Positions 21,686 through 50,136 of a stretch of DNA of 64,000 nucleotides are shown piece after piece. This DNA comes from the human T2T-CHM13v2.0 reference genome, Homo sapiens. The stretch is from the NCBI RefSeq assembly GCF_009914755.1, contig NC_060926.1; one strand, given 5' to 3'. The translations under genes were made by a program, and so were the position numbers. The notes below the pieces were generated by a model, which saw nothing but the letters and a program-made list of their open reading frames with translations, did no database searches and had not been told where the DNA came from. Position 1 is the first letter of the stretch, and each line of letters begins with the position of its first letter.

Positions 21686-21984
21686 TTTTCTTTCTTTTAT
21701 TTTGAGACAGGGTCTCACTCTGTGGCCCAGGCTGGAGTGCATTGGTGTAATCTTGGCTCACTGTAACCTCAAATTCCTGGGCTCAAGCGATCTTCCCACC
21801 TCAGCCTCCGGAGTAGTGGGGACTGCAGGCGCACACCACCGTGCCAGGGTAATTTTTGTATATTTTGTAGAGACGGGGTTTTGCCATGTTGCCCAGCCTA
21901 GTCTCGAATTCCTGGGCTCAAGCAACCCATCTGCCTCAGCCTCCCAAAGTGCTGGAGTACAGGAGTGAGCTACTCCACCTGGTC
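21686..21984 (-). mobile_element. AluJ
   Basis: Full dimer with J diagnostics (cctgggctcaagcgatc); aatttttctt flanking repeat. Confidence 0.9.
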
Positions 21985-22261
21985 AATTTTTCTTAATTCA
22001 GTTTTGTTAAACCATGCTCTTCACTGAATTTGCCTACTCTAAGTTGTCAGATGTATTGAGATAAATATTTTCATAAAATCCTCTTATTGTGATATCAGTG
22101 TGTAAAATCTCAGTGAGGTTTTTTCATTCCTAATGTTGCTACATTTTATCTTCTGCCTTTTCATTTTGTTTCAATTCATTGAAGTTTTATTGTTATTCTT
22201 GCTTTTGTGTGCCGTTTTTAGTTTCTATTGCTTACGTTTTCTAGTTCATTGATTCCTGTTA

Positions 22262-22279
22262 ACACACACACACACACAA

Positions 22280-22318
<39 letters not shown>
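22262..22318. repeat. (CA)n microsatellite
   Basis: Interrupted CA run. Confidence 0.95.
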
Positions 22319-22320
<2 letters not shown>

Positions 22321-22325
22321 GCACA

Positions 22326-22755
22326 CAGAGTTGATCTTGAACAACATGGGTTTGAACTGCATGAGTTCACTTACATACCAATATTGTTCAGCCTCTGCCA
22401 CTCCTGAGACAGCAAGACCAACCCTTCCTCTTACTCCTCCTCCTTAGCCTACTCAATGTGTAGATGAGAATGAAGAACTTCATGATGGTCCATGCTTCAA
22501 TTTAATTAATATGTTGTCTTATGATTTTCTTTATAATACTTTCTTTTCTCTGGTTTACTTTATTATAAGAATACAATATATAATGCATATAATGTACAAA
22601 TAATGTGTAATCAGCTGTTGATGTTATTGGTAAGGTTTCTGGTAAACAGTAGATTATTAGTAGTTAAATTTCTGGGGAGTCAAAAGTTACACACAGATTT
22701 TCACTTGAGGGAGGGAGCCTGGCTCCTCTAATACCTGAATTGTTCAAAGGTCAAA

Positions 22756-22759
<4 letters not shown>
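22326..22759 (+). mobile_element. Tigger2a-like (TcMar-Tigger) MITE
   Basis: Terminal inverted repeats (gttgatcttgaacaa ... ttgttcaaaggtcaa) and internal cctgagacagcaagaccaaccc. Confidence 0.88.

Positions 22760-22796
<37 letters not shown>
22758..22796. repeat. (TG)n microsatellite
   Basis: Uninterrupted TG run. Confidence 0.97.
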
Positions 22797-22798
<2 letters not shown>

Positions 22799-24679
22799 TT
22801 ATAATTTTATTTTTTAAACTTTTTTAAATTTGCTTTTCTGTTTCTAATTTGTTAAAATGGAAGTTTAAATCATTTAATTTAGAATTTTATTTTTTTCTAA
22901 TGTAACTTTTTGAAGTTACAATTTCCCACTAAGCACTAATTTAACAGCTAAATTATGTTATGCTATGTTATGTTTTCATTATCATTCAGTCAAAATATTT
23001 TCTAATTTCCCTCATGATTTTTTCCTTTGGTCCATGGTTTATTTAGTAGTGAACTGTATAATTTCCAAAGACCTTTGGCTTTTCCATGTGCCTTATTGTT
23101 GTTGCTTTCTGATTCAATTCTTACATAATTAGAGAACATATTCTATGTTATTTTAATCTTTTTAAATTTATGGAGAATGGTATTTTTCTATTTCTCCTTT
23201 TAGGTATGCTAATTTTAGCTACATGCAATTAAAAACTCTTTTATAGCATATTCAGAACCTAGAATTGTGTATCCATCTAGTCTATATCTCCTTTTGTCAG
23301 TAAGAAATTTCCCACTCTGTGGTTAGTAATAATTCTTTTTCTAAAGTCTACTTTGTGTTATACTAGTATAGGCATTTCAGCTATACTATTGGTTAGTGTT
23401 TGCACCATCTTGTTCTATTTGTTTACCTTTAGATTATGTGTAATTTTATATTCAAACCACCTTTTATGTAGTCAGCTGGTTGGGTCTTGCTTTTTTATTT
23501 AGTTTGTTAATATATGTCTTTTAACTAGAATGCTTAGATGATTTTATTTAGTGCAATTATTGATATGATTTGATTTATAACTAACATCAGATTATTTGCT
23601 TTCTCTTCATCCCATCTGTTCTTTGTTTCTTTTATTTTCTTGACCAAAGGATTAATTTAATATCTTTAAGATTGTATTTGATCTCTACCATTAACTTATT
23701 ACTTGTAGCTTTCTTTTCTTCTGGTTGCTCTGATTTTAAAGAAATCCACCTTTAACTTTTAACATTTGCCTTCGAATGACATTATACTACTTTCCCTGTA
23801 ATGGACTTTCAAATCCTCCTCTGATTTTTAGACTATTGACTTTTCAATACGTTATAAGCTGCATAATACACTGTTATTATAATTGCTTCTAAAACTGAGT
23901 GATCTTTTAAAATAATTTTAATATGAGAAACGTATTATATACTTACCAGCGCATTTATTGTATCCCACACTGTAATTCTTTTGTATAGACCCAGGTTTCC
24001 AACTGATAACACATTCCCTTTTATTTAAAGAACTTCATTTGATGTATTTTTTTGTGGCTTAGATTTGTTGTCAATGGCCTCTTGCCTTTTGTTTGTCTGA
24101 TTCACCCTCATTTTTACAAGAGATGTTGACAAGCTATAGAATTATAGTTTAATTTTATTATTTCAGCACTTTAAAAATATCATTCCATGTCTTCTTATTT
24201 AATAGTTTTCAGTCATTCTTATTTTTATTTCTCTGTACAGAAACAAAGCCGTTTTTAAGATTTTTGTCTTTATTATTGGTTTTCACCAATTTGAATGTAA
24301 ATGCGCTTTGGTGTGGTTTTCTTTATGTTTCATCTTAGACTTCATCAAACTTCTTGGATCTATAGTTTCACAGTTTTCACCAAATATTTCAGCCATTGTT
24401 TCTTTAAGTATTTCTCTGCTCCTTCTTCCTTTCTGAAACTCAATTACACATTCCGAATGGCTTCACATATTCTTATATCCTACTTCCACAAATTATGTTT
24501 ACTTTTGTTGTTGTGTGGTCTTTTTTTTCCTAGCATTTCATTGTCAATAATTATTATTGCCCCATCTTCAACTTTGCTGAACTTTTCTTTTGAACTATTT
24601 AATCTGCTGTTAATACAACTTTTTAATTTTTAATTTTTGAAATTTCAGATATTGTATTTTTATTTCAATAAAATAAAAT

Positions 24680-25468
24680 GAGTGGGTAGCTCCTATCTGC
24701 AGGCAAGTCGTCTCGTTGAGTGAGTGACTCTGGCTGAGGCTGGGGTCTTATGTGCTCAGAGTGGAAGTGCATACTGATTAGTCCATGGGTGGCCAACAGT
24801 GGGCCTGGAAAAACCACCATTCAATTGGCCGAAATGTCATCAATGAAGTTCTCACTCTGGGCGTGGACTTCACTGGAACTGGCGGCCTGGCCCCCAGGCT
24901 TCAGGAGGTTGCTGGCTTAAAGGAGGAGTTTCACCAGGGTCCCACCCCTTTCCATCAAGGAGCCTGTCTGCTTCCCGCAGCGGCCATCAGTATGCTGTCC
25001 ACAGCGCCCCGCCCCTGCTGATGGGCGCCTGCAGGCCTGCCCTGCCTCTCTCCAATGCTTGTCAGTGCCGGGGCCAAGGCAGCAGGGGGCTGGTGTGTCA
25101 GTGCCGCCTCAAGCACACGCACACCCAGCTGGGTGACAGCAGCACTCGCGCTCAGCCACAGCTTTGCTTCCTAATGGAGCTGGTGCTGTGAGCAGAGAGA
25201 GACCAGGGAGCAGGAGCCAGCACTTCTGAACCTATGGGGGCAGGGGACTTCCTGGGTCCCCGAGAGCACAGGGATGCCCGGGTCCAGAGCTGTAGCTGGG
25301 TGAGTGCAGCTGTGCCCAGGCTGCCTCCAGCCCTACCAACTCAATAGGGGGCAAGGCTTCTGCTGGGATTACTTGTTCTTGGCCCCCAACCAGCTCCGTG
25401 GTGGCGCCTCCCCCACAGCAGCCGGCATCTTTGCAGCGGCTGCTCCAGACGGGCTGAAGCTGTCACCA
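24680..25468 (-). mobile_element. MER52-like ERV1 LTR, 5' part (GC-rich)
   Basis: Minus strand begins tggtgacagc...ccgtctggagcagccgctgc; the 5' flank in element orientation is cttc. Confidence 0.85.
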
Positions 25469-26159
<691 letters not shown>

Positions 26160-26659
26160 AATAGAAAAGAGTCAAAAATCTCGATTGTCTATGCATTTCC
26201 AGTTAAATATTTAAGAAACATTTATAGAGCCTAAATTCTTATAAGCTCACCTCAATTTAATAAATATGTATCAAGTGCTTATTTTTACCTAGAAAATAAA
26301 GTCATAAAGGCAGATAAGTACCAAGCATTCTATTTACATTAATATAACATGAACAATCCATCATTTTATGAACTATGTTTCCAAATATATTCTAATATGA
26401 TTTTCAAAGTCACTATCCGTGTTAAAGATCTGCATGAGACCCCAGTGAAAATGTTTAAGTAGCTCATGGCTTTGGAAGAGAGGAGGTAGAACACATGATG
26501 TATTGAAGATATTCTTCCAGTAGGACAGAATTTCCATTTCATGTTTGCATTGTTTAAACATAGTGTGCACTAAATACAGAGTGCATTATTACTATTGTTT
26601 TCCCCTCATTAATAAGCAAAATTATCTTGTAAGAAATTGGAAAAGCTGTAAAGAATGCA

Positions 26660-27490
26660 AGTGTGCCAGATTGTGCTCAGTGAAGCCCCACCATCACCTC
26701 TTTCTGGGTTCTTCTTGGTATCACAGGAGAGAAGCCAGGAATGTTAATTCTCAAAATCCCTTGTACTTTAGATTCAGCTAATGAGTCGCTAGAATGCTAT
26801 TTAGAAACAAGTGAGAAAGAAACGCTCTTCCCCCACAGAAGCTGCAGGCCGCTTGTAATAGTCACGTTGGATTCCTTGACTTACTGGAGTCCTCTCTGTT
26901 GGCAAGCAACAGAAATCATACCTATTGCTTGTAGGAAACTAAAAACATAGACGGTGGCTTCTCTTGGCTTCCAGGGACCTCCTGAAGAACATCCACTTTA
27001 GTCCTGGGAGCAGATGGTATCACCAACTACCTCTGATCCCTGTACTTCTACATTTCTTAAAGGCAGATTCCTAACCTTTACATCCCCAGCCCTCCAAATG
27101 ACTGTATGAATTTCTAGTTCCATATATTAAATCTCTATCCAATAAAATTACCTATTATGCTTTTATTCCTGAAATACTTCAACTGATAATTTTTGTAACT
27201 GCAAATGATTCCAGGAAAATAGAGCCCCTCCACAATGACTGTGGGACTAGATTCTCAAATTCAGTTTGAAATGAAGGCAGAAATGACCACAACACCCGCA
27301 GAGAATGGGGCATATAACTACTTATAATATCACGGAATATAGTTACTTATAATTTCCCCTGTATTTACTTAGAAAGGAGAATCTATTGAAGGCAAGGTAT
27401 AGAAAGAGCACATGTTGTTAAAACAGAATGTTATAAAGTATATATTAAGTGAGCTGCTTCTTACTGCTCTGAAGAGCTTGGAGAAGAAAG
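26660..27490 (+). mobile_element. Old ERVL LTR (LTR33-like) plus the start of internal sequence
   Basis: LTR 3' end-like region around 27100-27190 followed by ERVL-internal-like sequence; highly decayed. Confidence 0.4.
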
Positions 27491-27841
27491 AAATGACATG
27501 GAGTTCTGTAACTTCTTGACCACATGTAGATCTACCGAGTCTCATGACTAATGTTAGAACTTGCAGGTAAGAAATATGAAAATTTTGGGAACATGAGAAT
27601 TCAGAAGTTTAAGTAAGTGATAAAAATTACAACTTTTTTAAAAAACAGAGGATTGACCAGTCTTGCCTGAAATAGAGACAGCAAATTCTGATTCATGTTT
27701 TGCCTCTGTTACTAATAGTTGCTGTATGCCCTTGAACAAATTACTCAATCATCCTGTGCCTATTCAAAGGAAGTACAGAGATGAAGCTGGAGAAGTCCTC
27801 CTTTGAGCTCATAACAGAGAGCTTAAAATGAGTGAAAGCTT

Positions 27842-27903
27842 CACTCTAGTCTGGGTCACAGTGAGACCCATGTCTCAATCAATAAATACATAAATTAATT
27901 AAT
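27842..27903 (+). mobile_element. Alu 3' tip (severely truncated)
   Basis: cactctagtctgggtcacagtgagacccatgtctc plus a decayed A tail. Confidence 0.75.
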
Positions 27904-28244
27904 TAAATGGAATGAAAAAAGTAGCCTCTGTCATGTGTTTGAACTTAAGTGATACTATAAAGGTTTTCCACAGAAGGTCAGTTCTGTTTCTCATACACTC
28001 ATAATTGGTTGTCTGCCCCTTTGTTCTAACTTGCCAAACCTGACAGATTAATCCTCTAGAAAGGCAGAACCTTTAAACCATTCCTCTCCTCAATACATGT
28101 CATGCTTTCCTGCTGCATACTAAATTAACCTAAACTCATCATCTTGGCATTCAAGGCTTCTAAGATGGGAATTATTGAATTAAAGTGCTATTATCTAACC
28201 CATTTTTTTTTACATTGGAAAACAGCTGTTTTATTAATTGGTTC

Positions 28245-30060
28245 ATTCAGTAATTCATTCAATCATTCAACAAACCTTTATTGAATGCTTTCAGTGTGCT
28301 AGTCACTGTGTGAAATACTAGAGAACAATGTAAATAAAGCACAGTTCCTACTCTCAAAGAGTTTATATGTTAGTAGAGAAGATATAAATATTGACAAAGT
28401 AGTATCACATGGTGTGATAGATGCTAGGATGTAGGCTTCTGCAGACAGGTATGAAAACCAAATGGAAAGCTAAGCAAACTAAAAAGACATGCAAAATGAA
28501 ATTTTCATAAGGTCCGTAAGTTTTAGGTAAAGGAAAAGGGGACTAAAGATTTTTTAGTAACTAGGATATGACATATGTAAAACACAAAGACCAGAAGATC
28601 CTGGAATGTTTGCAATCTACCTCCATATGGCTAGAATTCAAAATGCTAAAAGGGACATAGTAAGATAAACTCATTAGGACATAAAACATAAAGATTGTAG
28701 CATATCATGTTAAGGTGTTGGAACATTATTGTGAAGATAATAAACAACCATCCAAGGGCTGTAAGAAGGGGAGAGAATCATGAAGACAGTAATTTCAAAA
28801 TACTTGATAGCAATATGAGTAAACACAATTAGAAATGACAAACATTGCAATTGATCCCACAAAATTACAAAACATCCTCAGAGACTATTATGAGCACCTC
28901 CATGCACACAAACTAGAAAATCTAGAAGAAATGGATAAACTCCTGGAAACAAACAATGTCCCAAGATTGACTCAGGAAGAAATTGAAACCCTGAACAGAT
29001 GAATAATGAGTTCCAAAATTGAATCAGTAATAAAAATAAACCTACCAATTAAAAAAAAAATCCCTGGACCAAATGGATTCACAGCCAAATTCTACCAGAT
29101 ATACAAAGAAGAGATGGTACCAATCCTACTGAAATTATTCCTAAAAAATCAAGGAGGAGGGATTCCTCCCTACTCCTTTTATGAAACCAATATTATCCCG
29201 ATACCAAAATCTGGCAAAGATACAACAAAAAAAGAAAACCACAGGCCAATATTCCTGATGAACATAGACACAAAAGTCCTCAACAGGATACTAGCAAACT
29301 GAATCCAGCAGCATATCATAAAGTCAATTCACCATGATCAAGTAGACTTTATTCCTGGGAGGCAAATTTGTTTCAACATACACAAATCAATAAATGTGAT
29401 TCACCATGTAAACAGAATTACGAACAAAAACCATATGATAATTTCAATAGAGGCAGAAAAATCTTCAGATAAAATTCAGCATCTCTTCATGTTAAAAACT
29501 CTTAACAAACTAAGAACCAAAGGAACATACCTCAAGAAAAAGAGACATCTATGACAAACCCACAGCCAACATCATACTGAATGGGCAAAAGCTGGAAGCA
29601 TTCCCCCTAAGAACTAGAACAAGACAAAGTGCCCACTCTCACCACTCAACACGGTACCAGATGTGATAGCCAGAGCAAGTAGGCAAGAAAAGGAATTAGA
29701 AGGCATCCAGACAGGAAAAGGGAAAATCAAATTGTTCACTGATGATATGATTCTATACCTAGACAACCCTAAAGACTGCCAAAAGGCTCCCAGACCTGAT
29801 AAATAACTTTAGTAAAGTTCAGAACACAAAATTAACATTCAAAGTATTTGATAGCAATATGGAAGGTAAGTGGGGGAGAGGGATAATGAAGACAGTAGGA
29901 GAAATTGGGACGTTTTACAACCTAGAAAATAAATGAAAAGCCTTGAATGAAGAAAATGAGAGTGAAGATGGAATGAAGAGGTCAAATTCCGTGACACTTC
30001 CCTGTACACATGGTTTTCAGTAGTCACTGGGCTACACTGCTGATGACATGGAATATCAAG
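28245..30060 (-). mobile_element. L2 remnant split by an L1 fragment
   Basis: L2 3' end signature cattcaatcattcaacaaac...ttattgaatgc, with L2-like sequence continuing after 29861. Confidence 0.65.
28818..29837 (+). mobile_element. Internal L1 ORF2 fragment (RT-region N-terminus), no 3' UTR or poly(A)
   Basis: ORF 29006-29302 ([12 protein letters not shown]...[13 protein letters not shown]) is L1 ORF2p; flanked by a 24-bp direct repeat. Confidence 0.93.
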
Positions 30061-32273
30061 GTAGATTTTCATTTCACTCTAATGTTAGATAAGACAAGCA
30101 CTTCTTTTTTGGATCTCCAGAACTTTCACTGGAGAAGGCCCTGTGCCTTAAAATATATCATTCTGTTCCTCATTCCTGCCAAGGTATAATAAGTAATAAA
30201 GGAGGACCTGTACAATTTAGAGGCCTCAGCTTAGAGTGTTCAGGCTCCCAGATTGTAAACCTTAAATCATCTGATTTTTCCTTCTGCTTGCTAAATTGTG
30301 TATGAACATGTTGTGGGTGCAGGATTTCAGAACACTAATCTCTATCCCCACTCCAATTGTGAAAATAGCAGCTTGAGGAAAGGGATGAGGGGGAGTCAAG
30401 TAGCAGAAATTCCTCAGTTAGAAAGAAGAAAGTATTTGAAGGAATAAAAAACTTTACATTGTTTAATTCCATAAAAGGAATAAAAGAATCACTTGCAATT
30501 TTTTAAAATAAAACGTTATGTATTAAGCACCAAGCAAAGTCACTAATTACCATGTCACATAATATATTAACTTTAGAAATGGTCAATTAAAAAAAGCATT
30601 ACTGTTGAGAGGTGATATTGAAATAATACTGCCATTTATTTATTCTTCTAAAGGAAATTGGGAATCTTAAGCAAACTTATACTCTTATTTTTATACGCAT
30701 ACTATTATATTTAGTACTTAATCTGTGCAAATCCCAGAATGAGTTTTAAGCCTGGAATTTGAAAGCTTCATGGCCAAGAGCAAGGAACTGAAGAATGGGC
30801 TCTTGGGTCCTCAACTGAAACGTGGATATTTGAAGTAGGTAATGAACTCCAAGAGCCAACTTGCGGCCTACCCAGGTCTCATGTGTAATTTCACTGTCGT
30901 AAAAAGATGTCCTTCCTCCATATTTTCTTGAAACTGAAGGTGCTGTATGTCCAACTGCATTATAACCAAAATAATGTCCAGAAGATCAAATGTCTGGCCA
31001 GAGCTTTCTGTGATTGAGGGCCAGACAGTTGGATAAGTCCCTGAGTGCTTTAGTAGACTAAGCTAGAATATTCATACACTTCTGGGATAAAGATAGGATT
31101 CTTATTTCCAGAGAGACCTATGAAGAAAGTATAGGTCTCTGAGAGGCCACCTCCCATATCTTGCCGAAACCCCAGAGTCTTTTTCCTCCCATTTACACCC
31201 CGAGAATCCTACTCAGACCTTTACATTTTGTCGATAATTGTGACGTTTTTCACCCTTTTTGCATTTTCCTTGTCTAAAAAAACGTTCAGAATCAGATATG
31301 AGTCTGTTAAATTCCCTGGGAAGCTATCAAGATTCTTCCCAGTCTCCCTTTCCACCTGTACTAACTATATGGTCATATACATTACAGAATATCACAGAAC
31401 GACATTTATAACTATGTTCTGAATGAATGTATAAATAAATACATCAATTCATTAAAGCATTAATTTTAAAGGTTGGTGGAGAAGTACTAAAAAATGAAAA
31501 TAAAGTAAAATAGAAAGATACTTATTTCACTCCAATAAGACCCCTCAGAGGTTTATGAGCTCATTTCCTCATAGCAGTCATGGGGTCTAGAGTATCTCAA
31601 CCTCATGTTAAGTTACAAATGCAGCATGCAATATCTTTTCTTTTTATTATCTTTGGCTGGTCTCATTGGGGGAATGCCTCTTTTAGAAAATATTTTTTGA
31701 AATTTTTCTACAAAATGTCACTATTTGGACATCAAACAGCCACATTCCAAAGCTAGTTTGTCACCTCAGAGGTGCAGCTATTTACGGTAAAGAAACTTCT
31801 CAATGGGAAAAATGCTTTTGAGTTGTCTAGGTCTTTTTGAGTTAGTTTATAATTGATCTTACTAATGAAGTATTGTGAACTTTGTAGGTACAGAAGAGGG
31901 TACACTGGACTTTGTGTCTTTGTAACACTGTAAACCTACCTTTTCTGTAGCACTTCTCATTTCCTACTATGATTATACATTTTTCTTTCTATCACCATAC
32001 ACTGTGAGTATGTGAGAAACATCTGCATGTCTTACTCCTCTCTTCCCAGCTCTGTAACCGAGAGAGTCAATGCTCAGTAACTGTTGAAGGAATGAACAAA
32101 CTTGCTTATTTAGAAGAATACACATTATGGGATATTGTGATAGCACCAAGTATAAAAAGCAACATGTTCTCAGGTTCTCAGAGAAATGCCCTTTTTCTGA
32201 AGATGATTTAATCTATGTCTGCTTTGAGGGGGAAGTAGTTAAGGGAGAGGATGGAGTTAGTTTTGATGGAAAG

Positions 32274-32682
32274 TGTATTAGTCCATTCTCACCATTGCTA
32301 TAAAGAAACACCTGAGAAAGAGTAATCTATAAAAAACAAAAAAAGAGGTTTAATTGGCTCACGTTCCACCGGCTGTACAGGAAGCATGACAGCATCTGCT
32401 TTGGGGGAGGTCTCAGGGAGTTTTACTCACGGCAGAAGGCAAACAGGGAGAAGGCAGCTTATGTGGCAGGAGCAGGACCGAGGTTTAAAAGTGTTTACAT
32501 ACTTTTGAACAACGAGATCTCATGAGAACTCCATCATGAGATAGCACCGAGGGGATGGTGCTAACCATTCATGAAGGATCCACCCCCATGATCCAGTCAC
32601 CTCCCGCCAAGCCCCACCTCCAACACCGGAGATTCCAATTCTCCATGAGATTTCAGTGGGGACACAGCTCCAAACCATTTGA
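32274..32682 (-). mobile_element. MST (MaLR) solo LTR
   Basis: tgtattagtccattctc ... caaaccatttga; 5-bp TSD gaaag on both sides. Confidence 0.93.
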
Positions 32683-33345
32683 GAAAGATTCTGTTTTCTG
32701 ACTTCAAACAGGAAAGTGATGATTAAGATGGTGACTCTGAGGCAGACCATCCACCTTCAAACCCTGGCTCTGCTGCTGATGACTCTGGTCCTCCAGCAAG
32801 GTTTTTAGCTTTTCTGTGGATTAATTGTCTTATTTATAAAATGAGATACTAATAGTAACTGCCTCATAGTATTGCTATATCAGTTAAGGAGATAATATAT
32901 GTAAAGCACTTAAAATAGTGTCTGGTACATAATTCAGTACTATATGAAGGTAGTTGTTACAGTGGTGGTGTTTGTGGTTATGGTCAGGGTGGTTTTTATT
33001 ATTATTTCACAGGTTAAAACTTGTGACATCCAAGAATACATGAGTTGAAAGGGCCTCAAAATTTATCTCATCTGAAACCCATGTAATAGGTTTGTTTAGT
33101 CCTTAAGATCTGAAAAATGTTTTGCATCCTCAAATTCTGTGGGTCCTTCAGGCCCCAACATCCAGTTTATTTTTTATCTGGGAATAGTTGGTCAGAATCA
33201 CTTCCAGAGACTGAACAGTGAATGCTTATTTCAGTGTCTGTCTTTCCTGGAAGGATCATGACACATCAGTCCATGTGCTTTCTCTGTGGCCATGCTCTAG
33301 GGCTGGTGTAGGATAATTTGAATAGAAAACTAACAACTTCCCTTT

Positions 33346-33413
33346 ACACTCTGCCCCCGATCTTGAAGAAGATCCTGCAAGTTGGATCTTCTTCAAGATC
33401 GGGGGCAGAGTGT
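33346..33413. repeat. Perfect inverted repeat, 30-bp arms, 8-nt spacer
   Basis: acactctgcccccgatcttgaagaagatcc-tgcaagtt-ggatcttcttcaagatcgggggcagagtgt. Confidence 0.97.
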
Positions 33414-33428
33414 GATGAGAAGTTGTTA

Positions 33429-33499
33429 TTATTACAGTAAGTAGCACAGTAAATTTTACCCATTCTATACTGAGCACCCTCTGCTACTTACTGTAATAA
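33429..33499. repeat. Inverted repeat, 18-bp arms, 35-nt spacer
   Basis: ttattacagtaagtagca (33429-33446) and tgctacttactgtaataa (33482-33499). Confidence 0.93.
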
Positions 33500-35305
33500 C
33501 AGTTAACAGTGTTAACAATCATCAATAGCTTTCAAAGTTATACAAAACTTCACTACTTTCAAAGTGCATTTATATAATGATCATATTTTGTATTCAAAGC
33601 CTTTCTGCAAACCTATGATTGGATTCCTAGTTTTGCAGAAGAAGGAATGAAGCTCTGAAAGAGTAAAGATTGAAGACAAAATGGCAGAGCCATACCTACC
33701 TGCTCCCTATCCAGTGCTCTCTCACTATAGCATATTTATTTTTTGATAACCCGAGAAAGAAAAGGAACCCATTGCCTGAATATTTCTTGGGCATCTGGGA
33801 TTTGGAAAGCACTAATGAAAGCCTGTGATATGCACAGTGTATGCTCCGACTAAAGATAGAATACAGCCTCATGTCCACAGCAGGGAAGATCCATTGCAAA
33901 TCCTCTAACTGATCATTTGTGCACATTTTCTTCAAGGACAATTCGTTGCATATATGAAGGCCTCCTGCCAGGGTCAGAGGTGATCCAAAATTAACATATT
34001 TGATGAGTCTGATGCCCTGGTGGGGAATGCCAGACAGGAAGGAAAAAGACCAGGAAAATAGCAGGAATCGTTCTAAACACTTTACATATGGGAACTCCTT
34101 TATTTCTCAGAGCACCCCTGTATGGTACTATTGTAGTCTCATTTTACAGATGAGAAAACTGAAGCACAAAAGTTAAGCACTTGCTCAAGATAATATTCTA
34201 TGTAATTGGCAGAGTCTTACAGAATCCTTTAACTGTGGCTATTTCTATAACAGAACTCTAAATAGAAGCACAGCTGGAATACGCTGTCTTTTGGGCTTCT
34301 GTGATTCAGACATGGCCATCACATGCCATGTGTCCAGCCTGTTTTCTTTGGTATTTTAATTTTTGTGGGTTTTTTTAAACATTATGGGTAGCCTACTGAT
34401 GGAGGTATCAAAAAAAAAAAAGAAACTTCCCAGAGCATTTCATTATCATATTCAATCGGTATTATAATTAAGTAATTAAATGTTAACATTTTAAATGTAT
34501 TCTAATTAGAATATCTACTTATATAACAAAATAAAATATTACATAAGAAAGCCTTTTCAGTTTGAGTTCCTTAATTGCTCTTAAGTGTCTTGTCATCGGT
34601 CATTGACAACATCAACTCTCTATGACTTGCTTTCCACTCACTAAGCCCCCAAAACCCTAGGATGCTCATGCCAGTCCTGAGAGCTTCACCTTAATTAGAG
34701 ATGCGAGATGCATGTGCTGAACTGGTGAGATTTTGGCATATGAACTTAGATTCCCTCATCTGAGCTGAGACAGTGCCTTGCAGGGTATGAGTTCATTCAT
34801 GCTGCAGCTGCGAGTGAGGCAACAGGGAACTCACCCCAAGATATTGGACAGTCAGGGAGGCCAGGCTCCAAAGAAGGCAGGGCACAGGAATGGTGTTGAA
34901 GAGAAAAGCTTAAAGGGTAGCTCTGGTTATGTCCCCCTTAGAATTCTGAATATGTAGAATAAACACGTAAAAAGCAAACAAAATGTTACTTGGAAGGTAA
35001 GAAATGAATTGATGAGAGCTCCAAGTGCCTTAGGTCGGAGGATCCAGATTGCAGCAGGCAACAAGCACAGGTTGATGTTGTTATTCATCAACAGAGGAGC
35101 AGTCGGGTAACAGACAGCCAAGGTAGCTAAGCAATGTGGGAACTGCTGAAAGCCAGTTGAGCCCACAAACCTTGAAGTCAGAGTCATCAAGAAGAAGACC
35201 TAAAGAAGGGCTGAAATATTGACAAATGAACAGGTAAATAGACAGTCCTTTTTATTTACAAGGACTACCTGCCTAGTCAGGTGTCTGTATGTGTATCTGC
35301 AAACT

Positions 35306-35620
35306 CATATATATATCATATATTTTATTATATACATATTATATATGTTACATATATTATATTATATATTATATCTATCTTAATTATATACAATATACAT
35401 AGTATATTGTATATTACATATACATATAAAAGTAATGTGCATATTATACATATTGTATACTATATATACATGTTTTATAATCATATAATATACATATAAT
35501 ATACATATTATGTATACTTGTAAATCTTAATATATACAGATACACATATTATATATCTTGATATGTACTGATACACGTATTATATATTAATATAATATAT
35601 TATATATAAATACTATATTG
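35306..35620. repeat. Degenerate (TA)n / AT-rich low-complexity tract
   Basis: About 300 bp of TA/TACA-type alternation. Confidence 0.9.
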
Positions 35621-35629
35621 TCAAGCATA

Positions 35630-36300
35630 TGATGAAAAGTAAACATACCTATGGCTACTGAACTATTGAAGTAAAATGGTCTGTTGGCAGAGACAGAATA
35701 ATTAGATAATTACACCATAAACTTAAGGTAAAACTGCAATGCTGATAAGTGCTATACAGGAGAGGTCAACGTGCTGTGAGAATACTTGATTGATAGAAGA
35801 TTTGACCTAGGCAGAAAGGTCATGAAAGTGTTTCTAGAGAGAATAAGATTTGTGCTGAATCAGAAGCATGATTAGAGCTTACCTAAAAGGGGGAAAGAGG
35901 ACCCTTGGATAGAGAGACATTTAAGTGCAAAGCCCGAGTGACAAGAAAGGGAGCAGGTGGACGGCTTAGACTGCTGGAGCAGAGAGATAAGAGGGCTGCA
36001 TGGTTAAAACTGAAGCTGGAATCATATCTAGGGCCCTAGTGGGCACAGTAAGTTTTTCATACTGAGGAGTTTGTTCTTTATTTGAAGTGCCATGGAAGGC
36101 ATTTAAGTGTAAGCAGAAACATGGGAGGAGGGGAAAGACAACTAATAAGATATGTGATTTGAGCAGAGCTCTCTGAACTGTGCATGCTGGACTAAAAGAA
36201 ACCAGAGTATGTGTCCAAATGCAAGTTGAAAGGCAATCGATCTCGATGACAGGAGCTTCGCTAGGAAGACGAAAAGAATTGGACAGATTGAAAGCAACAG
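35630..36300 (-). mobile_element. L2 remnant
   Basis: Purine-rich antisense L2-like motifs (gataagtgctat, gacctaggc...ggtcatgaaag, ggaaggcatttaagt). Confidence 0.55.
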
Positions 36301-36789
36301 AAATTCTGTCATCTCTCAATTTCTGATGTCAAACCACCACAATTTAAACTAGCTGATACAATTTGATCTTATTGAACTTCCCTTCCCTGTAGTTTAGAAA
36401 AAATGTCATGGCAAAAACATGGAATTATGACAAGAATTTATGAGAATAATACTTCAGGAGCTGCATGGGTCATCCCAGACCTAGAAGGAAACTGAGAAAG
36501 AACAGCTAATACTTACGTAGCCCCAAGAATGACAGAGTGAGTGCTGTGAATAGTTTGAGAAAGGAAAAAGAAAAAGGAAATTGCTTTGAAACACTTGAGA
36601 CCTTTGGCATTACTTGAGGGTTGAAGAGATTAGATTACAAGGAATTGAGAAGAGAGAAATTAATAAAACTATAGAGACAACATGGATAAACCACCCTCGG
36701 GAGATAATACTTTAGGGAAAGGGAGAGCTTAGTGAAAGGGCATCAGGTCAAGGGAAAGTAATAGGAAGGAATATTATCTTTAAGTCTAA

Positions 36790-37910
36790 ACAGAATCTTT
36801 ATTAAGTATGATGTTAGCCATAAGCTTTTTCATAGATGTTCTTTATTAGACTGAGGAATTTCCCCTTTATTCCTATTTTGCTAAGAAGTTTTATCAGGAA
36901 TGAATGTTGAGCTTTTTTAAATAGTTTTTTCTGCATCTATTGAGATACTCATACTGGCTTTCCTTCTATTCTGCTAATATTATGAACTAAACTCATTTAT
37001 CTCTCCAAATTTAAATCAGGCCGTATTTCTGTAATAAACCCTTTCTGATCTTAATTTATCTGCTTTATATATATTCATTACTTTGATTTACTATTTTCTT
37101 GGATTTTTAAATATGTGTTCATGAGAAGTGTTTGCCTTTTATTTGTTTTCTTTTACTTCCTTTTGTTTTATAATGTCTGTGTCAGGTTTTATTATCAGAG
37201 TGAGGTTGGCCTCTTAAAATGAGTTGAAGAGTGTTTTTCTTTCTTTCTCTTTCTTTTTCTTTTCTTCTTTCTTTTTCATTTCTTCTTTCTTTTTCATTTC
37301 ATTTCCTTTTTTCTTTTCTTTTCTTTTCTTTTCTTTTCAATGGTGGAGGGGTGGGAGTGCAGTGGCACCATCAAAGAGTGCTAAACCTCAAACTCCTGGG
37401 CTCAAGTGATTCTCCTGCCTCAGCTTCCTAAGTAGCTGGGACAATACATGGATGGCACTGCATCCCACCCCTCCATTTCCTGAAAAGTTTTCTGCAGACA
37501 AAGAATGCCGATTCTTTCTTCCTAAGATGTTTTATAAAATCCACCCATTAAAACTTCTAGGCCTTGAGTTTTCTTTATGTAAGTGTTTTCTCTGTAGAAT
37601 ATTAATCTATTTGATATGGTTGAACTTAAGTATTTCAGTTTATTATTAGTCATTTGTGATTTTCTTCCTCTATTCTTTTTTCTACCATCATTGAGATTTG
37701 AATATTTTTATAACTGCATTTTATTTTATTGATTTGACTTTTATCTATACCTTTTATTTTGGCATTTTTTGGTAGTTGCAAGATGTGAAATATATTGAGT
37801 TTTCAGTGTCAGCTTACAGCTAATTTTGTATCACTTAAAGGAAAAATAGAAACTTCCAATCACATACATTAAACAGGTCCATGTATCCCAACCCTCTTCT
37901 TTATGCTGTA
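36790..37910 (-). mobile_element. Old L1M fragment containing a partial Alu with an expanded CT-rich tail (37235-37470)
   Basis: attaagtatgatgttagc...ttttttctgcatctattgagat; Alu J-type right-arm piece aactcctgggctcaagtgattctcctgcctcagc. Confidence 0.8.
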
Positions 37911-39067
37911 TTTGAAGATTATCTGGAGGTTTCTGGTAGGCATCAGCTTAGGAAATAAAGAAGAATACTTTTTATAAAATATAACTGTAACAGTCATCAG
38001 AGAATTACATATAATTCTCCCATGTCACGATTCAGAGATGTAGATTGATTTTTCCAACACAAAACAATTAGCTGCTTGCCAGTGATGATTTTGAATCCAA
38101 CCTTTATCAAGCTCCAACATTTGATAAAATTCTGTGGTGGCAGTACCTCCTCTGCCATAAGAGGAAGTAAAGGGTAAATAAAGATTTGGAAATATCCTGA
38201 GGTGGAGCAGAAAGGGAAAGGAGACTTCATCTACCTGCCCTGATGCAAGGTGACAAAAGAATCATTCCAAACTCACACCTTAGGGAAGAGTACAGGCTCT
38301 GGAGACTGACAGGTTTTGGTGAATTTGTTGATGTAATGATATTTTTACTTCTCTTTTGTCCTCAACAGCATCAAGAACAATTCTTTATACAGGTCCACAA
38401 AAAGTAAATGTTCTTGGTTAGCTGACTGTGACAGATTCTCATGGGACAAACTGAAATGATTGAATATATGTATTTTATTGTTCTCAGAAGGTCAAATTTT
38501 GCTTGTTTCCAGCTACTTTGAATGAATGAAACAGACACTCTTCAGAGCATATTTTTTCTTTTTTTTCCTCTTTTTTCAAATTATTCACAATTCACAAAAT
38601 CATTCAAAATGAAACAAGAAGAAATATGAATAGGACCAGCCCTCTTTGACTCCTACAGAGGGTATCGTTAAGAACCAGGGCTATAAAGAAGCATGATGCA
38701 TTACAGGAAACAAACTGTCCAGTAACAACTTTTTTCATTAAGTTTAAGTGGCTCCCCATGTGGAGGTTTTCAGTGAGCCTTGCAGGCACCCCAGCAGTTA
38801 GATCCCAAGGAGGGATGTTTCCTGCCTTAATATTGACTATTGATCAGCTTTGGCCCAGAGTAATTCAGGGAATTTCTGAACTATGCAAGGAGCTAAAACT
38901 ATGCTTTGTCCAATTACATCTGAATCCTAGTTTTGGAGAGGAACTGCTCACTCCTTTCCAAGTTTGTTCTTTCCATGTTCTTCCCATCAAGTGTAAAATA
39001 TTTTAAAGTTCTCTTTAATTCTGTGAAGTTATTCTTGTTATAGTCATCAATAGTAATCCTTTATCTT

Positions 39068-39274
<207 letters not shown>

Positions 39275-39740
39275 AATGATCCTTTATCTTAAAATTATCT
39301 CTTTCAATTGCTTTGTAGTTTCTTTATCTTTATTGGACCCTGACTGATACAGAGCCATAGAACTGAGATTAACAGAAAAAGTCTTGATTAAAACTAGTGA
39401 CTGCCAAGCTATTTACAGAGAAGCATTATGGGGAAAAATCAGAATATAAAATTAATTCAAGATTGGGGAAAAAGAATCAGATGAAATCAGAGGCTCTTGG
39501 GATACAGCCCAAGACTGTAGCATGAGCAAGAAAAATCCAATCAAGCCTGGGAGAATTGCAATTGATAGATATGTCTCAGCAAACTGATGATGTATTTCCA
39601 AATCTCAAGGTTTTTCAAACTGGCAATAATAAGATTTCCTATATTTGCCTAGGACAGGTATAAATAGCATAAAAATTAACAATCAGATTAAAATTGTCTG
39701 GCGTAAAAAAATAAAAATGGAATTAATCTCTACTAGAGTG

Positions 39741-40198
39741 TGTAACAGTTAAAGAAAGAGAAAAGAAACATGAAAAGCAGCTCAACAGTGAAAGATAGAT
39801 TTATTTTGGAGAATAAACCTGAGAGGGGCTTCTGGCCGATTTCGGTTGGGACCATTCTCTCTTACAGACTAAGAGTATTTATTGGTGAGAGAGCTTATCA
39901 CAAGCTTGGAATGTTTCTATTTGGGGGAGAAGTTTATGGCAGGATTGGAATGTCTCCGGTCAGAGGGAGGTTATCTTGGAGCTGACATCTCTCTGGCCGG
40001 TGGGGGCGGTTATCTCAGGGCTGGCATGTCTTGGGTCAAGGAGGTTGGAATGTATCTGGTTGGAGATGTCATTTTTGGTTTACGGTCATGATGACCTTAG
40101 CCATTAGGCTGATGCCCTTTGGATTTAGGCAGTTTTTGATCAAGGAGGACTTTGGAATGGCAGTGCTTGTCCAAGATGGCAATGTTCCTGCTCTGTCA
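39741..40198 (-). mobile_element. Solo ERV1 LTR (MER61-like)
   Basis: Minus strand starts tgacagagcaggaacattgccatcttggacaagc; TG...CA termini; gagtg direct repeat on both flanks. Confidence 0.8.
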
Positions 40199-40586
40199 GA
40201 GTGCAAAGGAAAGCATACAATGCTATAGAAATCACTAGCAATAGGGAAGATTCAAACCAACTCAGGAAGGAAACATATAAGCAAGTAAGTCATGAAACTC
40301 AGCAATACAAAGCCTGTGTTTTATATTTTTGTTAGTTATCTGATTATTTAATTCTAGAAGAGAGAGCACTCATAGCATATTGTAACCATGACAGAAATCT
40401 GACTTAGGTGATACGGAAACACTGTGGTGATTTCAGAAAGGGTAAGGAAAGATAATACAGTCCAAGATGGGGCCCCTTCCTATCACACAGAGGAAAATCT
40501 TAGAATGCATAGCTGCAAATTCAGAAAGGTGGCCTCTGAAGATTGGGGAACTTAAGAACATTTATATTCACAAATAACACATCTAC

Positions 40587-40695
40587 CTCCTGGAGAAACT
40601 CCCACTGCTGGTTTGAATATCACCTGAAGAACAGAAGGCTAAAGATTCCAATGTGTGGATTTGTAAAGTGACAACTTCCAGAGCTTCATCAGAAA
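40587..40695 (-). other. Candidate spliced exon (109 nt)
   Basis: Minus-strand ttcattcattcag acceptor and GAG|gtagat donor around non-repeat sequence; motif evidence only. Confidence 0.25.
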
Positions 40696-40753
40696 CTGAA
40701 TGAATGAACACTAGCATAATAGGCATGCTGAGAAAATTCTTAAAAACATTTTT

Positions 40754-41005
40754 AGGCGGGTGGTCACCTGAGGTCAGGAGTTTGAGACCAGCCTGACCAA
40801 TATGGTGAAACCCCATCTCTACTAAAAATACCAAAAAAATTATCTGGGCATGGTGACACAGGCCTGTAGTCCCAGCTACTAAGGAGTCTGGGACAGAAGA
40901 ATTTCTTGGACCCAGGAGGTGGAGGTTGCAGTGAGCCAAGATCGTGCCACTGCAATCTAGCCTGGGCTATGAAGTGGGACTCTGTCTCAAAGGAAAAAAA
41001 AAAAT
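40754..41005 (+). mobile_element. AluS, 5'-truncated
   Basis: cacctgaggtcaggagtttgagacc... with A tail. Confidence 0.92.
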
Positions 41006-42281
41006 AAGATTTTTAATGGATTCTTATTACCTTGAGTAAAATGCACTTCCAACTCCTTTTCAGCATTATTTTTTTAATTTGAAAAGCACTGTCCTTTAGT
41101 GTCATCAAGTTTTACAAATATTCAGATAGGGGCTTTAAAAATACCAGCTTTCATATATGACTTCTTGGAGTCTTTCAAGTGCGTGCCTGATGTAGGTAAA
41201 TGCTGGAAATGTTCAAAGTTGTGATTTGTGTCAGAAGAGATACTGTTCCCCTAGCCAATTTCATTCTGAGCTGCTCAAACCCTTGTCCCTGGAGCCATCA
41301 GGTGATCAAAAATAACCCAGATGCTGAACCTCCACTTAATAACTCCACAGGGTATACAACTTGTCAAAAAATCAACCAGAATGATCCTTTTTACTATTTC
41401 TTTGCTTTTTATTCTTTTGCTTTTTAAAAACATTGACAGATATGTGATGAAATAAACATTAACCCAAATGTCAAGAGACCTAGGATTACATCTTGGCTTT
41501 GTGGCTATAGTATCTGAGACTTTGGGGTTCACCTTACTTCTCTGGGCCTTAGTTTTCTTAACCAGAAATATGGACAGTGATGACATTTTCACGTAGCTAC
41601 AGGTAGAAAGTCCCTTTAAAACACATGGTAGTGTGGAGAGAAAAGATAGTACTCAATTTTCCCGACAGCAAAAGAGAGTACAAAATAAGTCATTTAAGAA
41701 GACCTCTATTCTTCAGCCAATCCAAATTCAGTTGCTGAAGGCTCATTATGCAAGAAGAAATAAATAGTTTGCAGAGACAGAGACTTCACAAGTTTACAGG
41801 CTGAAGAGTTACCACTCTCTCCTTACATTCAGGTCATGGAAGGATGGCTAACTATGATTAGTGGAAAGAATTGGAGGCTGCTTTTTTCACCAACCAATAG
41901 AACAATGCCCGTGTTCACAGAGCTTTGCTTCTCACATGAACGTCGTGATAACTGACAGGTGGTTTGCCCTGTGTGGTAGCTCCAGACACAGCCCCACCTG
42001 TCCAGTGCCTGTTTCCATTCAGATTTAGGCTGAAATGTACAGGTCCTCCCCTTGAATCTGCTCAATGCCATCACAGGTCCAATCTTTGTGTTGGTTGGTC
42101 AATACAGCGGCAGATCTCTGTCCACTCAGAATATCATGGTAACCTTTACTTCCTCTCTGATACTATCCCACTGCATTCCTCAAGGTGAATTTCACCTGCG
42201 ATCCCCTTCCACACTCATATGTATGGTAAAATCTTTAGAAAAGTACCTAGGAAGTATCATTAGCAAAAGAGGAAAATGGTG

Positions 42282-42286
<5 letters not shown>

Positions 42287-42325
<39 letters not shown>
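42287..42325. repeat. (CA)n microsatellite
   Basis: CA run. Confidence 0.95.
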
Positions 42326-42327
<2 letters not shown>

Positions 42328-45220
42328 CAAAATAGAGGAAAACAGCAATCCAGAGACCACATCCAGAAAGTACAAAGCCCAGGCACAAAAGTAAAGAAAC
42401 TCTTACTCAAAATGTCCTGTGTTGTCACATGGTAAAAAGAGCAGAGGCTTTAACTCAGAAAAGATTTAGTTTCTACCCTTACCAGCTGTATCCCCTCAGA
42501 TAAGTTAATTAACTTACAGAGCTGGTTAACTCGTCTATAAAATAAAGATGATAATACATGCTATAGGGTCATTTTGAAGATTACATGTTTTGTAAAGCAA
42601 CTGGAATAGTTCCTGACCCATAGGGAGTGCTTGTAAACATTTAACCTTTCTCCATGTTTTAGTACTCAAAGCAAACAGCAGTCTATGAAAAAAAGCAAAT
42701 AGACCCTGTTATAACGCAAAGCGATAAGTGACTATATCATAAGTAAGAACAAGGTATTATGAGAATCAAAAATTTAGTCTTGAAGAATAAAGTCTCACCA
42801 GTGAGAGAAAATACATCTAATAAAGGCCATAGCAAGAGCCAAAAGTCTTTGGCAAGGCTAAGAGCACCGAGTTGCAGGGTAGTTGAAATGAAGGTTTTGT
42901 TTGAGTTTTCTCATAATGGGGTAGGGGTTGGCTTGGGGGTGGGATTGGAAAGGAGATTGGCTTGCCAAGAGATGACATTGCAATGTGGCATCCTCTACCG
43001 GGGCTACCCTGTAAAGGATCTAAAACATACCTCAGAGGCATGGTAAAAAGAGGCTAAAAATGTGGATGTCCTAAGTTTATGAAACAAGATGGGCTAGAAG
43101 ATAAATACCTTCAAATTCTCCATTATTCTCAGTGTTCTAATCACTGAATTTTTGGTTTGTGACCTCTGTGATTAATCTTTAATACAGTCTTGGTGAGTTG
43201 TACATGAATTATGTATTTCCTTTTTATTTAAACATAACCACTTGAAAAAAATTTAGGTCTCAAATTTTACCATCGCATTATACCTCTAGGAATTTGTCAT
43301 CTTTTCTTCAATTTTTCCCCAGTTTCAAAGAAACCCCACTGAGTGTCATAATCAAAAATCTTTGTATTTTTAGGACCTTGAAAAAGTGGGATTGATAAAA
43401 TACAATACAAATACAACTGTATTTTATTTCTCTTTTTTCTTATAACAATATATTCAGCAAGGAAATTCTTCAATTGCCCTGTATAAAAATCTCAGGAAGT
43501 TCCACAAATTTTCTGATTACTCACAGATAATATATAGATTCCAGGGTCATTTTTAACTGTCAGCACAACTCCAATTCTATTAAAAAGTTATTCTCTTCCA
43601 GGTATTTATTATAATTAACTACTCAGCAGTTTTAGGCCTCTTTCCTTAGCTTAAACTGAACAAAAAAAGAAAGGAATTTCATCTTTTTCTTTTCTCCCTT
43701 ACTTGCCCCTCAACTTGCTAGGGGCTACAACAGACACTTCCGGGGCTAAAAAGTGAGAAACAAAGAGGTAAAGGAAATTCAAGTTTTTCCTGCCATAATA
43801 TAACCTCATGAACTCCAGGTGTGATAGTCATTTATAGCCTACTATTTCTCTGGTTGATTCTCAAGTGAGTTCTTTGGAGGATCTCTTCCTGAGCCCCTCA
43901 ACTTGCTACTGTCAAAATGTGAGTGAAGCAAACTTCTTCCAGCCTCTGCTTCTTCTTCAGCCTCTGCTGTTGTGAAAATATACTAGGAGTTCACTAGGCA
44001 AATTATGCAAATGAAAGAACTTCAGGAAAGAGATACATATGTGGAAAAATACTCCAAGTATGTTGAAGTCCAAGACAAGGGCAGCGAGAGATGAGGTTGA
44101 AGGCTAGCCAGAGGACAGCCCATGAAATAGTAAGCAAAAAAATAATGGCCACTCTCTGTTGAAGACTTACTGTATCTCAGATACTCTATTTAGATTTTTC
44201 ATATATAAAATCCATTCAGTTCTTATAAACACATAAAAATATGAGGAGGAACAACACATTTTAAATAAGAAAGTTACTTGTCAAACTTATACTTACACAA
44301 AACATAGTGATCTTTCTAAACTGTGAATCTGATCATATTATCTCCTTGTTTGGAATACTCTATGCTGAAGAAAAAAACTCAAAGTTCTTGTAATGGTATG
44401 GAAATTCATGATCTAGTCACTCCAGCACCTAGAACAACCTCATTTATGATGGCTGAGGCTACTTACGGTTTCTTTAAAGGATTAAAAGAATAAATCACTT
44501 CAAGTGATCAAAAAATATTCACAATAGTTTCTATTGTGGTTAATTTGCCTTGCTGCTCTTGCCTCCAGCCCCTTGAAGATATTATTTATCCCCTCTGCCT
44601 GAAATGCCTTGCACCCACTCCATTCCATTCTACCTGCCTAATTCCTGTTTGTCCTTTAAGTCTTAAATTAGACTACTCCAGGATGCTTACACTGAACTCT
44701 GAAGAACGTGATGATTGTTTCTTATGAACTTAGTGGGCTGGCCTAACAAACATCCAAGAAAAGTCTGTTAAATGAAAGTATCATAGATACAGATGTGTTT
44801 TGAAAATCTTGTCTCTGCAAATTATTTGAAATGTTATCATGTAAAAGTCTCAAATTTTTGGAGCCTTTATTTCTTTACTATCAAATTAGAATAAATAATA
44901 TCATTAGATTGAAGGCAAGCTATGAACAGTGTCTTGTATGTTTTCAGTATTCAGTTGACCCTTGAACAATGCAAGTTTAAACTGCAGAGGTCCACTTATA
45001 TGTGGATTTTTTAAAATAAAACTTACACCAAGGGTGCCTGCCTCTCCTGCCTCTCCTTCCACCTCCTCCTTCTCTTCTGGCTCTGCCACTCCTGAGACAG
45101 CAAGACCAACCCCTCCTTTTCCTTCTCCTCAGCCTACTCAGTGTGAAGATACGAGGATGAAGACCTTTATGATGATTCAGTTCCACTTAATGAACACTAA
45201 ATATATTTTCTCTTCCTTTT

Positions 45221-45295
45221 TAATTTTTTTAAGTTTTATATGCACATATAATAGATGTGCTTAGTGATCCATGTGATATTTTGATGCAGGCATAC
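45221..45295 (-). mobile_element. L1MA-type extreme 3' end plus tail (3' part of the U6-L1 chimera)
   Basis: T tract followed by ...catgtgatattttgatgcaggcatac, matching an antisense L1MA terminus. Confidence 0.7.

Positions 45296-46446: not shown

Positions 46447-47161
<715 letters not shown>

Positions 47162-49754: not shown

Positions 49755-50136
<382 letters not shown>

What the first reader, a model, noticed from the sequence alone, without database searches (positions are those of the whole stretch)
33331..33428. Perfect 30-bp-arm palindrome: candidate de novo pre-miRNA or template-switch product
Seen: zero mismatches over 30 bp, an 8-nt loop and an intact CpG in both arms. After a 5-nt internal mismatch the stem extends with taacaacttc/gaagttgtta, giving a ~98-nt hairpin that I do not recognise as a MITE. 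Established: template switching between short inverted repeats can create perfect palindromes, and hairpins of this size can be Drosha/Dicer substrates. Inference: a young, lineage-restricted hairpin that may yield small RNA from either strand or extrude a cruciform.
Basis: partly seen in the sequence, partly recalled or inferred. Interest (0 to 1): 0.7.

Follow-up and report, generated by a model that had tools for sequence, protein, structure and literature searches.

The report
Single-copy hairpin in a human intron
This is a real, apparently single-copy 98-base DNA hairpin in an intron of a human non-coding gene, likely left by a one-off copying error during DNA replication like thousands of others in our genome, and probably not a microRNA gene.

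Summary
The hairpin is real: perfect 30-bp arms (33346-33375 / 33384-33413), an 8-nt loop, 42 of 45 arm positions complementary overall, far beyond chance. It lies in an intron of LINC00276. No second copy turned up in the genome by DNA, pattern or terminal-repeat searches, which argues against a MITE, and no Rfam family reaches its threshold. A second, unreported hairpin (21-bp arms) abuts it directly. The best explanation is a replication template switch, probably in primate ancestry; 6,054 such 30-55-bp stems were inferred in human gene regions and 0.9% are miRBase entries (PMC10710096). As a Drosha substrate it fits poorly: stem 45 bp (optimum 33-39), no basal UG, apical UGU or CNNC, and the neighbouring hairpin removes one single-stranded flank. 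Orthologous sequences, Dfam and small-RNA reads were not available, so the origin is inferred and the miRNA idea is disfavoured, not excluded. Verdict: a new member of a known, common class; low interest.

The parts
33331..33340 (.). outer stem, left side (10 bp, fully complementary to 33419-33428)
33341..33345 (.). 5-nt segment holding all 3 arm mismatches (partner 33414-33418); a 3x3 internal loop in the minus-strand RNA fold
33346..33375 (.). left perfect arm, 30 bp, with CpG at 33358-33359
33359..33374 (.). small inverted repeat nested inside the arm (6 bp + 4-nt loop), mirrored at 33385-33400; weak (about -2.8 kcal/mol as DNA)
33376..33383 (.). 8-nt loop
33384..33413 (.). right perfect arm, 30 bp, with CpG at 33400-33401
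33414..33428 (.). right mismatch segment (33414-33418) and right outer stem (33419-33428)
33429..33499 (.). second hairpin abutting the first: arms 33429-33449 and 33479-33499, 20 of 21 complementary, 29-nt spacer; no second copy found
5691..64000 (-). host: intron of lncRNA LINC00276 (minus strand), continuing beyond the window
   Evidence: RefSeq table supplied with the finding; not re-derived here

Best explanation
This is a single-copy inverted repeat, likely made by a short-range template switch during DNA replication in a primate ancestor, and likely a functionless passenger in a LINC00276 intron. Mechanism (inferred): a stalled nascent strand folded back, or jumped to the opposite strand, copied about 30-45 nt backwards and rejoined the proper template, writing the reverse complement of one arm in one step. 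Either the whole 45-bp arm was copied once and three substitutions followed, or an older imperfect repeat was re-perfected over its inner 30 bp by a later switch; the data here cannot separate these. The abutting second hairpin may have promoted the stall, or be a product of the same process (inferred, untested). Shown: the repeat, its arm identity, its folding potential on both strands, and the absence of a detectable second copy. Inferred: origin, age and lack of function. When the intron is transcribed the stem would fold in the pre-RNA but is predicted to be a poor Microprocessor substrate.
For: Chance is excluded. No second copy: DNA searches of the whole genome gave only the locus itself; a 26-nt arm pattern with up to 3 mismatches gave 2 matches, both arms of this locus, control 0; a terminal-repeat pattern gave 1 other site against 2 for the control. 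The 26-nt test would detect with 95% chance a family of 57 copies at 70% identity or 7 copies at 80%, ignoring indels. No target-site duplication at the hairpin's edges. The arms are much more alike than old repeats nearby, whose matches to other copies are mostly 60-70%: P(42 or more of 45) is 1.4e-4 at 70% identity. Published work shows template switches create such stems in one step (PMC5453318; PMC8794818) and inferred 6,054 new 30-55-bp stems in human gene regions since the primate ancestor, of which 57 (0.9%) are miRBase loci (PMC10710096); event lengths in the 41 or so rows of its Dataset S1 that I read run from 20 to 88 nt.
Against: No orthologue could be read, so the one-step appearance of an arm, the defining evidence, is not shown. 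The locus is not in the Walker 2021 great-ape list at GRCh38 chr2:14.22-14.32 Mb (the GRCh38 position is from a recalled offset of about 30 kb, and that study filtered out many quasi-palindrome conversions), nor was it found in 11 of 22 supplementary files of PMC9435742. All 3 mismatches fall within 5 nt (P about 0.02 under random placement, post hoc), which a single event plus neutral decay does not predict. Two long hairpins with no base between them are not explained by one simple switch. My background sample was small: 0 perfect arms over 18 bp in 200 kb, so I could not confirm the published frequency myself.
Confidence: 0.75

Rival explanations
1. Relic of an old, low-copy, hairpin-shaped non-autonomous DNA transposon (Eulor/UCON/MER-type), possibly spanning both hairpins, whose arms were kept matched by selection or later homogenised.
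For: Two abutting hairpins, each ending in TA; they sit in about 1 kb (33000-34060) with no match to common repeats, between old repeats; such ancient unclassified low-frequency families exist in the human genome (PMC5753468, passages). Dfam/Repbase could not be searched.
Against: No second copy by any search. The 21-nt pattern of hairpin 2 gave 9 other sites against 4 for the control, and none of the 9 extended or carried a partner arm. A covariance model of the hairpin found nothing else in 294 kb of held sequence. TA is its own complement, so it is no evidence of a target-site duplication here. A family below about 200 copies at 65% identity could still have been missed.
Confidence: 0.13
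2. An unannotated intronic microRNA or proto-microRNA: the minus-strand LINC00276 pre-RNA folds here, DROSHA-DGCR8 crops it and DICER releases a 22-nt RNA, perhaps only in tissues such as retinal pigment epithelium.
For: Very stable stem on the host-sense strand; sense-intronic position is the commonest setting of template-switch miRNAs (81 of 99 intragenic cases, PMC10710096); LINC00276 RNA is detected in ARPE-19 cells (PMC11006464, passages); an 8-nt loop is inside the enriched 8-16 nt range and MIR579 is a real miRNA with a 44-nt stem and no CNNC (PMC5340965); clustered mismatches leave an internal loop near the base.
Against: No miRNA in the RefSeq table supplied; best Rfam scores 47.3 bits (mir-2329, threshold 90) and 36.3 (mir-5928, threshold 59) come from pairing, not sequence. 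Stem is 45 bp (or 30 for the perfect part) against an optimum of 33-39. No basal UG or CNNC in 6 of 6 cut registers tried, no apical UGU/GUG on either strand. In both 251-nt folds the second hairpin occupies one basal flank. Base rate 0.9% even for miRBase-level annotation. Three 15-nt arm motifs occur in 0 papers of the full-text library (main texts only).
Confidence: 0.05
3. A DNA-level structure that matters: the repeat extrudes a cruciform or lagging-strand hairpin and acts as a local mutation or breakage hot spot or protein-binding site.
For: DNA hairpin energy -37.8 kcal/mol for the core and about -45 for the full stem; longer, more identical arms with short spacers are more recombinogenic (PMC7999016, passages); a second hairpin next door is what a hot spot might leave.
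Against: Extrusion from duplex DNA is thermodynamically unfavourable without supercoiling and spacers reduce risk; the core is 51% G+C, unlike the several-hundred-bp AT-rich PATRRs; no RefSeq functional element overlaps it (supplied table). A weak outward extension of hairpin 2 that would suggest serial switches was only nominally significant (1.0-1.9% of 20,000 control draws, post hoc).
Confidence: 0.05
4. Chance or an assembly artefact.
For: None positive; only one assembly was seen.
Against: Expected count 1e-6 per genome; a fold-back read artefact would not carry three mismatches followed by a further 10-bp match (inference).
Confidence: 0.01

Closest known systems
Template-switch-generated hairpins of the primate lineage (Monttinen, Frilander and Loytynoja 2023, PMC10710096; four-point model, Loytynoja and Goldman 2017, PMC5453318)
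   Same: Single-copy, near-perfect stem of 30-55 bp with a short central loop, inside an intron, a few later mismatches.
   Different: Their cases rest on ancestral reconstruction, which could not be done here; a second hairpin abuts this one; the list of 6,054 loci was not available, so it may already be counted there.
Template-switch-derived miRNAs such as hsa-mir-576, hsa-mir-3926-1, hsa-mir-3122 (PMC10710096 Dataset S1)
   Same: Similar copied length (42, 45 and 47 nt); sense-intronic position.
   Different: Those have read stacks and database entries; this locus has no annotation, and no read evidence was seen.
Made1 MITE and the hsa-mir-548 family (PMC1784062, search listing only)
   Same: Short palindromic unit with hairpin potential; ends in TA.
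   Different: Made1 is a multi-copy family; this has no detectable second copy.
Eulor/UCON ancient low-frequency repeats (PMC5753468, passages)
   Same: Unclassified short elements in old non-coding DNA; many are hairpin-shaped (recalled, not from a call).
   Different: No second copy and no evidence of deep conservation here; the libraries could not be searched.

Membership tests
Template-switch-generated hairpin | New stem of 30-55 bases with a central loop | tested here: met
   45-bp arms (30 perfect), central 8-nt loop; criterion
Template-switch-generated hairpin | Inverted fragment of 15 nt or more at 80% identity or more | tested here: met
   42 of 45; criterion
Template-switch-generated hairpin | Not simple-repeat DNA | tested here: met
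   Dinucleotide entropy 3.51 bits, the highest among the 11 repeats listed; dustmasker itself not run
Template-switch-generated hairpin | No equal hairpin in the ancestral sequence; one arm appears on a single branch | not testable with these tools
   No other mammalian genome held
Template-switch-generated hairpin | Listed in a published event catalogue | tested here: inconclusive
   Absent at chr2:14.22-14.32 Mb in Walker 2021 S2 Data; absent from 11 of 22 files of PMC9435742; the primate-wide list was not available
MITE / non-autonomous DNA transposon | Multiple dispersed copies | tested here: not met
   power limits
MITE / non-autonomous DNA transposon | Target-site duplication | tested here: inconclusive
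   None at 5 of 7 boundaries tried; only TA at the 2 boundaries set inside the terminal TA, which any palindrome ending in TA shows
MITE / non-autonomous DNA transposon | Match to a Dfam/Repbase consensus | not testable with these tools
   No repeat library on hand
Canonical pri-miRNA | Stem of 33-39 nt | tested here: not met
   45 bp full, 30 bp perfect core; range from PMC5340965; exceptions such as MIR579 exist
Canonical pri-miRNA | Apical loop 8-16 nt | tested here: met
   8 nt; range
Canonical pri-miRNA | Basal UG, apical UGU/GUG or CNNC motif (enhancing, not obligatory) | tested here: not met
   None in 6 of 6 registers over both strands
Canonical pri-miRNA | Single-stranded flanks at the basal junction | tested here: inconclusive
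   Predicted folds pair one flank into the abutting hairpin on both strands; prediction only
Canonical pri-miRNA | Lies in a transcribed unit | tested here: inconclusive
   Annotated LINC00276 intron (supplied table); gene detected in ARPE-19; no reads over this site seen
Canonical pri-miRNA | Homogeneous 22-nt reads from both arms with 2-nt 3' overhangs | not testable with these tools
   No small-RNA data
Known Rfam miRNA family | Score at or above the gathering threshold | tested here: not met
   0 of 19 listed matches reach it; only U6 does in the whole window

The most novel reading that the evidence does not exclude
The two abutting hairpins were built by successive template switches, the first hairpin provoking the next, and the longer one is now cropped from the LINC00276 intron into an unannotated, tissue-restricted small RNA (for example in retinal pigment epithelium): a microRNA caught being born at a self-propagating hairpin hot spot.
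Probability: 0.04. Interest if true: 0.5.

Novelty: new member of a known kind. Interest (0 to 1): 0.17.

Why it matters
If the best reading holds it matters little: it is one of several thousand hairpins that replication errors are inferred to have written into human introns, raw material from which about 1% became annotated microRNAs. The one unusual touch is a second hairpin with no base in between, which makes the site a handy test case for whether an existing hairpin triggers the next template switch. If it did yield a small RNA, it would add one more example of de novo microRNA birth, a process already described.

Tried and rejected
Rfam family: sub-threshold miRNA hits reflect generic pairing. 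MITE family by sequence, by arm pattern and by terminal repeats: no excess over control; the one other terminal-repeat site (L017) shares only the 9-nt ends. Hairpin 2 as a tiny Tc1/mariner-like element: 9 pattern hits outside the locus, none with a partner arm or flanking homology; paired-end pattern found only this site. Outward extension of hairpin 2 into the right arm of hairpin 1 (12 matches with a 4-nt gap): reached by 205-374 of 20,000 control draws, post hoc, so not relied on. Covariance model over the window and 30 held loci: only the site itself; it could not be run over the whole genome. Plasmid collection, blastn: no match. Literature: 27 papers name LINC00276, none of whose titles or abstract openings concerns a hairpin or intronic miRNA (listing only for 25 of them); arm motifs in 0 main texts; search for novel miRNAs at 2p24.3 listed 15 of 970 loosely matching papers, none about this locus by title. 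The microinversion paper's supplement was an unreadable scan. A larger background sample for a base rate could not be obtained, so only 200 kb was scanned.

Full report
Observation. The described structure is there. The arms 33346-33375 and 33384-33413 are complementary at 30 of 30 positions around an 8-nt loop. Outside them lies a 5-nt segment with 3 mismatches and then a 10-bp perfect stem (33331-33340 / 33419-33428), so the whole repeat has 45-bp arms with 42 matches. Each arm keeps a CpG. As RNA it folds at about -77 kcal/mol on either strand, with 0 of 200 shuffles as stable. About 1e-6 such arms are expected by chance in the genome; 30 Markov resamples of the window reached 10-14 bp, and 20 background stretches of 10 kb reached 18 bp.

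Surroundings. The supplied RefSeq table places the site in an intron of LINC00276 (minus strand) and lists no miRNA or enhancer over it. A second hairpin begins on the next base (arms 33429-33449 and 33479-33499, 20 of 21 complementary). Each arm of the main hairpin also holds a weak nested 6-bp inverted repeat. Against about 290 kb of held human sequence, 32234-32689, 32727-32958 and 34062-34208 match other loci at mostly 60-70% identity (I recall these as a MaLR LTR and two MIRs; the names come from no call), whereas 33000-34060 matches nothing.

Is it a transposon? Whole-genome DNA searches returned only the locus itself; the tool warns that this search skips common words and scored 1 candidate each time, so I added pattern searches. 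A 26-nt arm pattern with up to 3 mismatches matched only the two arms, control 0. A pattern for the terminal 9-mers 60-90 nt apart found 1 other site, against 2 for the control. For hairpin 2, a 21-nt pattern with 2 mismatches found 9 other sites against 4 for the control; none of the 9 extended or had a partner arm, and a paired-end pattern found only this site. The 26-nt test has 95% power for 7 copies at 80% identity, 57 at 70% and 212 at 65%, ignoring indels, so a small, very old family is not excluded. No target-site duplication was found at 5 of 7 boundaries; the TA at the other 2 is uninformative. Dfam and Repbase could not be searched.

Origin and age. Three mismatches in 45 give 6.7% arm-to-arm divergence (1.4-18%). 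With lineage rates that I supplied from memory, this fits best at roughly 30-45 million years and poorly at 90 million years or more (P(3 of 45) 0.23, 0.12 and 0.004), if the arms evolved neutrally. Arms as diverged as the neighbouring old repeats would reach 42 of 45 with probability 1.4e-4. Template switching makes such stems in one step (PMC5453318, passages; PMC8794818, passages). PMC10710096 (parts 1-4 of 6 of the text; part 1 of 3 of Dataset S1; term search of 3 supplementary files; Dataset S2 too large to read) inferred 6,054 new stems of 30-55 bases in human gene regions, 57 of them (0.9%) miRBase loci. The term '1426' occurred once in those files, on chr7, so no listed miRNA sits at the expected GRCh38 place. 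The great-ape catalogue of 4,017 events (PMC7954356, passages; S2 Data searched; S1 Data too large) lists none at chr2:14.22-14.32 Mb; the nearest found was at 14.407 Mb. This suits an origin before the ape splits but is weak: the GRCh38 position rests on a recalled offset of about 30 kb, and the authors filtered out many quasi-palindrome conversions. In PMC9435742, 11 of 22 supplementary files were searched without a hit; the other 11 may bear on it. The supplement of PMC8755829 was unreadable.

Results against this reading. The three mismatches sit within 5 nt (P about 0.02, post hoc). This could mean a second, inner homogenisation, a multi-nucleotide mutation or selection for an internal loop. 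Two long hairpins with no gap are not the product of one simple four-point event. I tested whether hairpin 2 once extended into the right arm of hairpin 1, which would point to serial switches: the match was reached by 205-374 of 20,000 control draws, too weak to use. The defining test, one arm appearing on a single branch, could not be run.

Is it a microRNA? No Rfam family reaches its threshold; the best are mir-2329 (47.3 of 90 bits) and mir-5928 (36.3 of 59), whose alignments match by pairing; in the whole window only U6 passes. PMC5340965 (passages) gives an optimal stem of 33-39 nt and an enriched loop of 8-16 nt. Here the stem is 45 bp (30 if only the perfect part counts), the loop 8 nt. 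No basal UG or CNNC appeared in 6 of 6 cut registers and no apical UGU/GUG on either strand; in both 251-nt folds hairpin 2 takes up one basal flank. In favour: sense-intronic position (81 of 99 intragenic template-switch miRNAs), host RNA detected in ARPE-19 cells (PMC11006464, passages) and the precedent of MIR579 with a 44-nt stem. Three arm motifs occur in 0 main texts of the library; supplements were not covered. Of 27 papers naming LINC00276, I saw the listing for all and passages of two; none mentions this hairpin in what I saw.

Cruciform. The DNA stem is stable as a single strand (-37.8 kcal/mol core), but extrusion from duplex needs supercoiling and is discouraged by spacers; the fragile PATRRs are far longer and over 90% A+T (PMC7999016, passages). 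Short inverted repeats are abundant, 5.2 million with arms of 6-25 nt (PMC12562434, passages). Untested.

Verdict. Real, apparently single-copy, most likely a template-switch hairpin without function (0.75); old transposon relic 0.13; small-RNA source 0.05; DNA-level role 0.05; artefact 0.01. A new member of a known and common kind. Interest 0.17.

Noticed in passing
window 33429-33499: Second hairpin (21-bp arms, 18 perfect, 29-nt spacer) starting on the base after the main one; about 1.6e-4 perfect 18-bp arms expected in the window by chance; no second copy found.
   Followed up: yes
window 33497-33524: Short repeated 6-7-nt motif right after hairpin 2, forming a 6-bp mini-stem and a weak inverted match to 33413-33428; only nominally significant.
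   Followed up: partly
window 2492-2527 and 7284-7317: Two more perfect inverted repeats in complex sequence with 6-nt loops (15-bp and 14-bp arms). The first lies in a RefSeq enhancer (2125-2760). The 14-bp one is at the level reached by 3 of 30 resamples.
   Followed up: no
window 33603-33640: Imperfect inverted repeat, 16-nt arms, 88% complementary, 6-nt loop.
   Followed up: no
window 32234-32689, 32727-32958, 34062-34208: Old interspersed repeats not in the supplied mask list; recalled as a MaLR LTR and two MIRs, the latter in opposite orientation around the hairpins (pair I2).
   Followed up: partly
window 45296-45399 (-): U6 pseudogene confirmed by Rfam at 65.9 bits.
   Followed up: no
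L037:4940-5006: Perfect 18-bp inverted repeat with a 31-nt spacer in the background sample; looks like a small mariner-type MITE (recalled, not tested).
   Followed up: no
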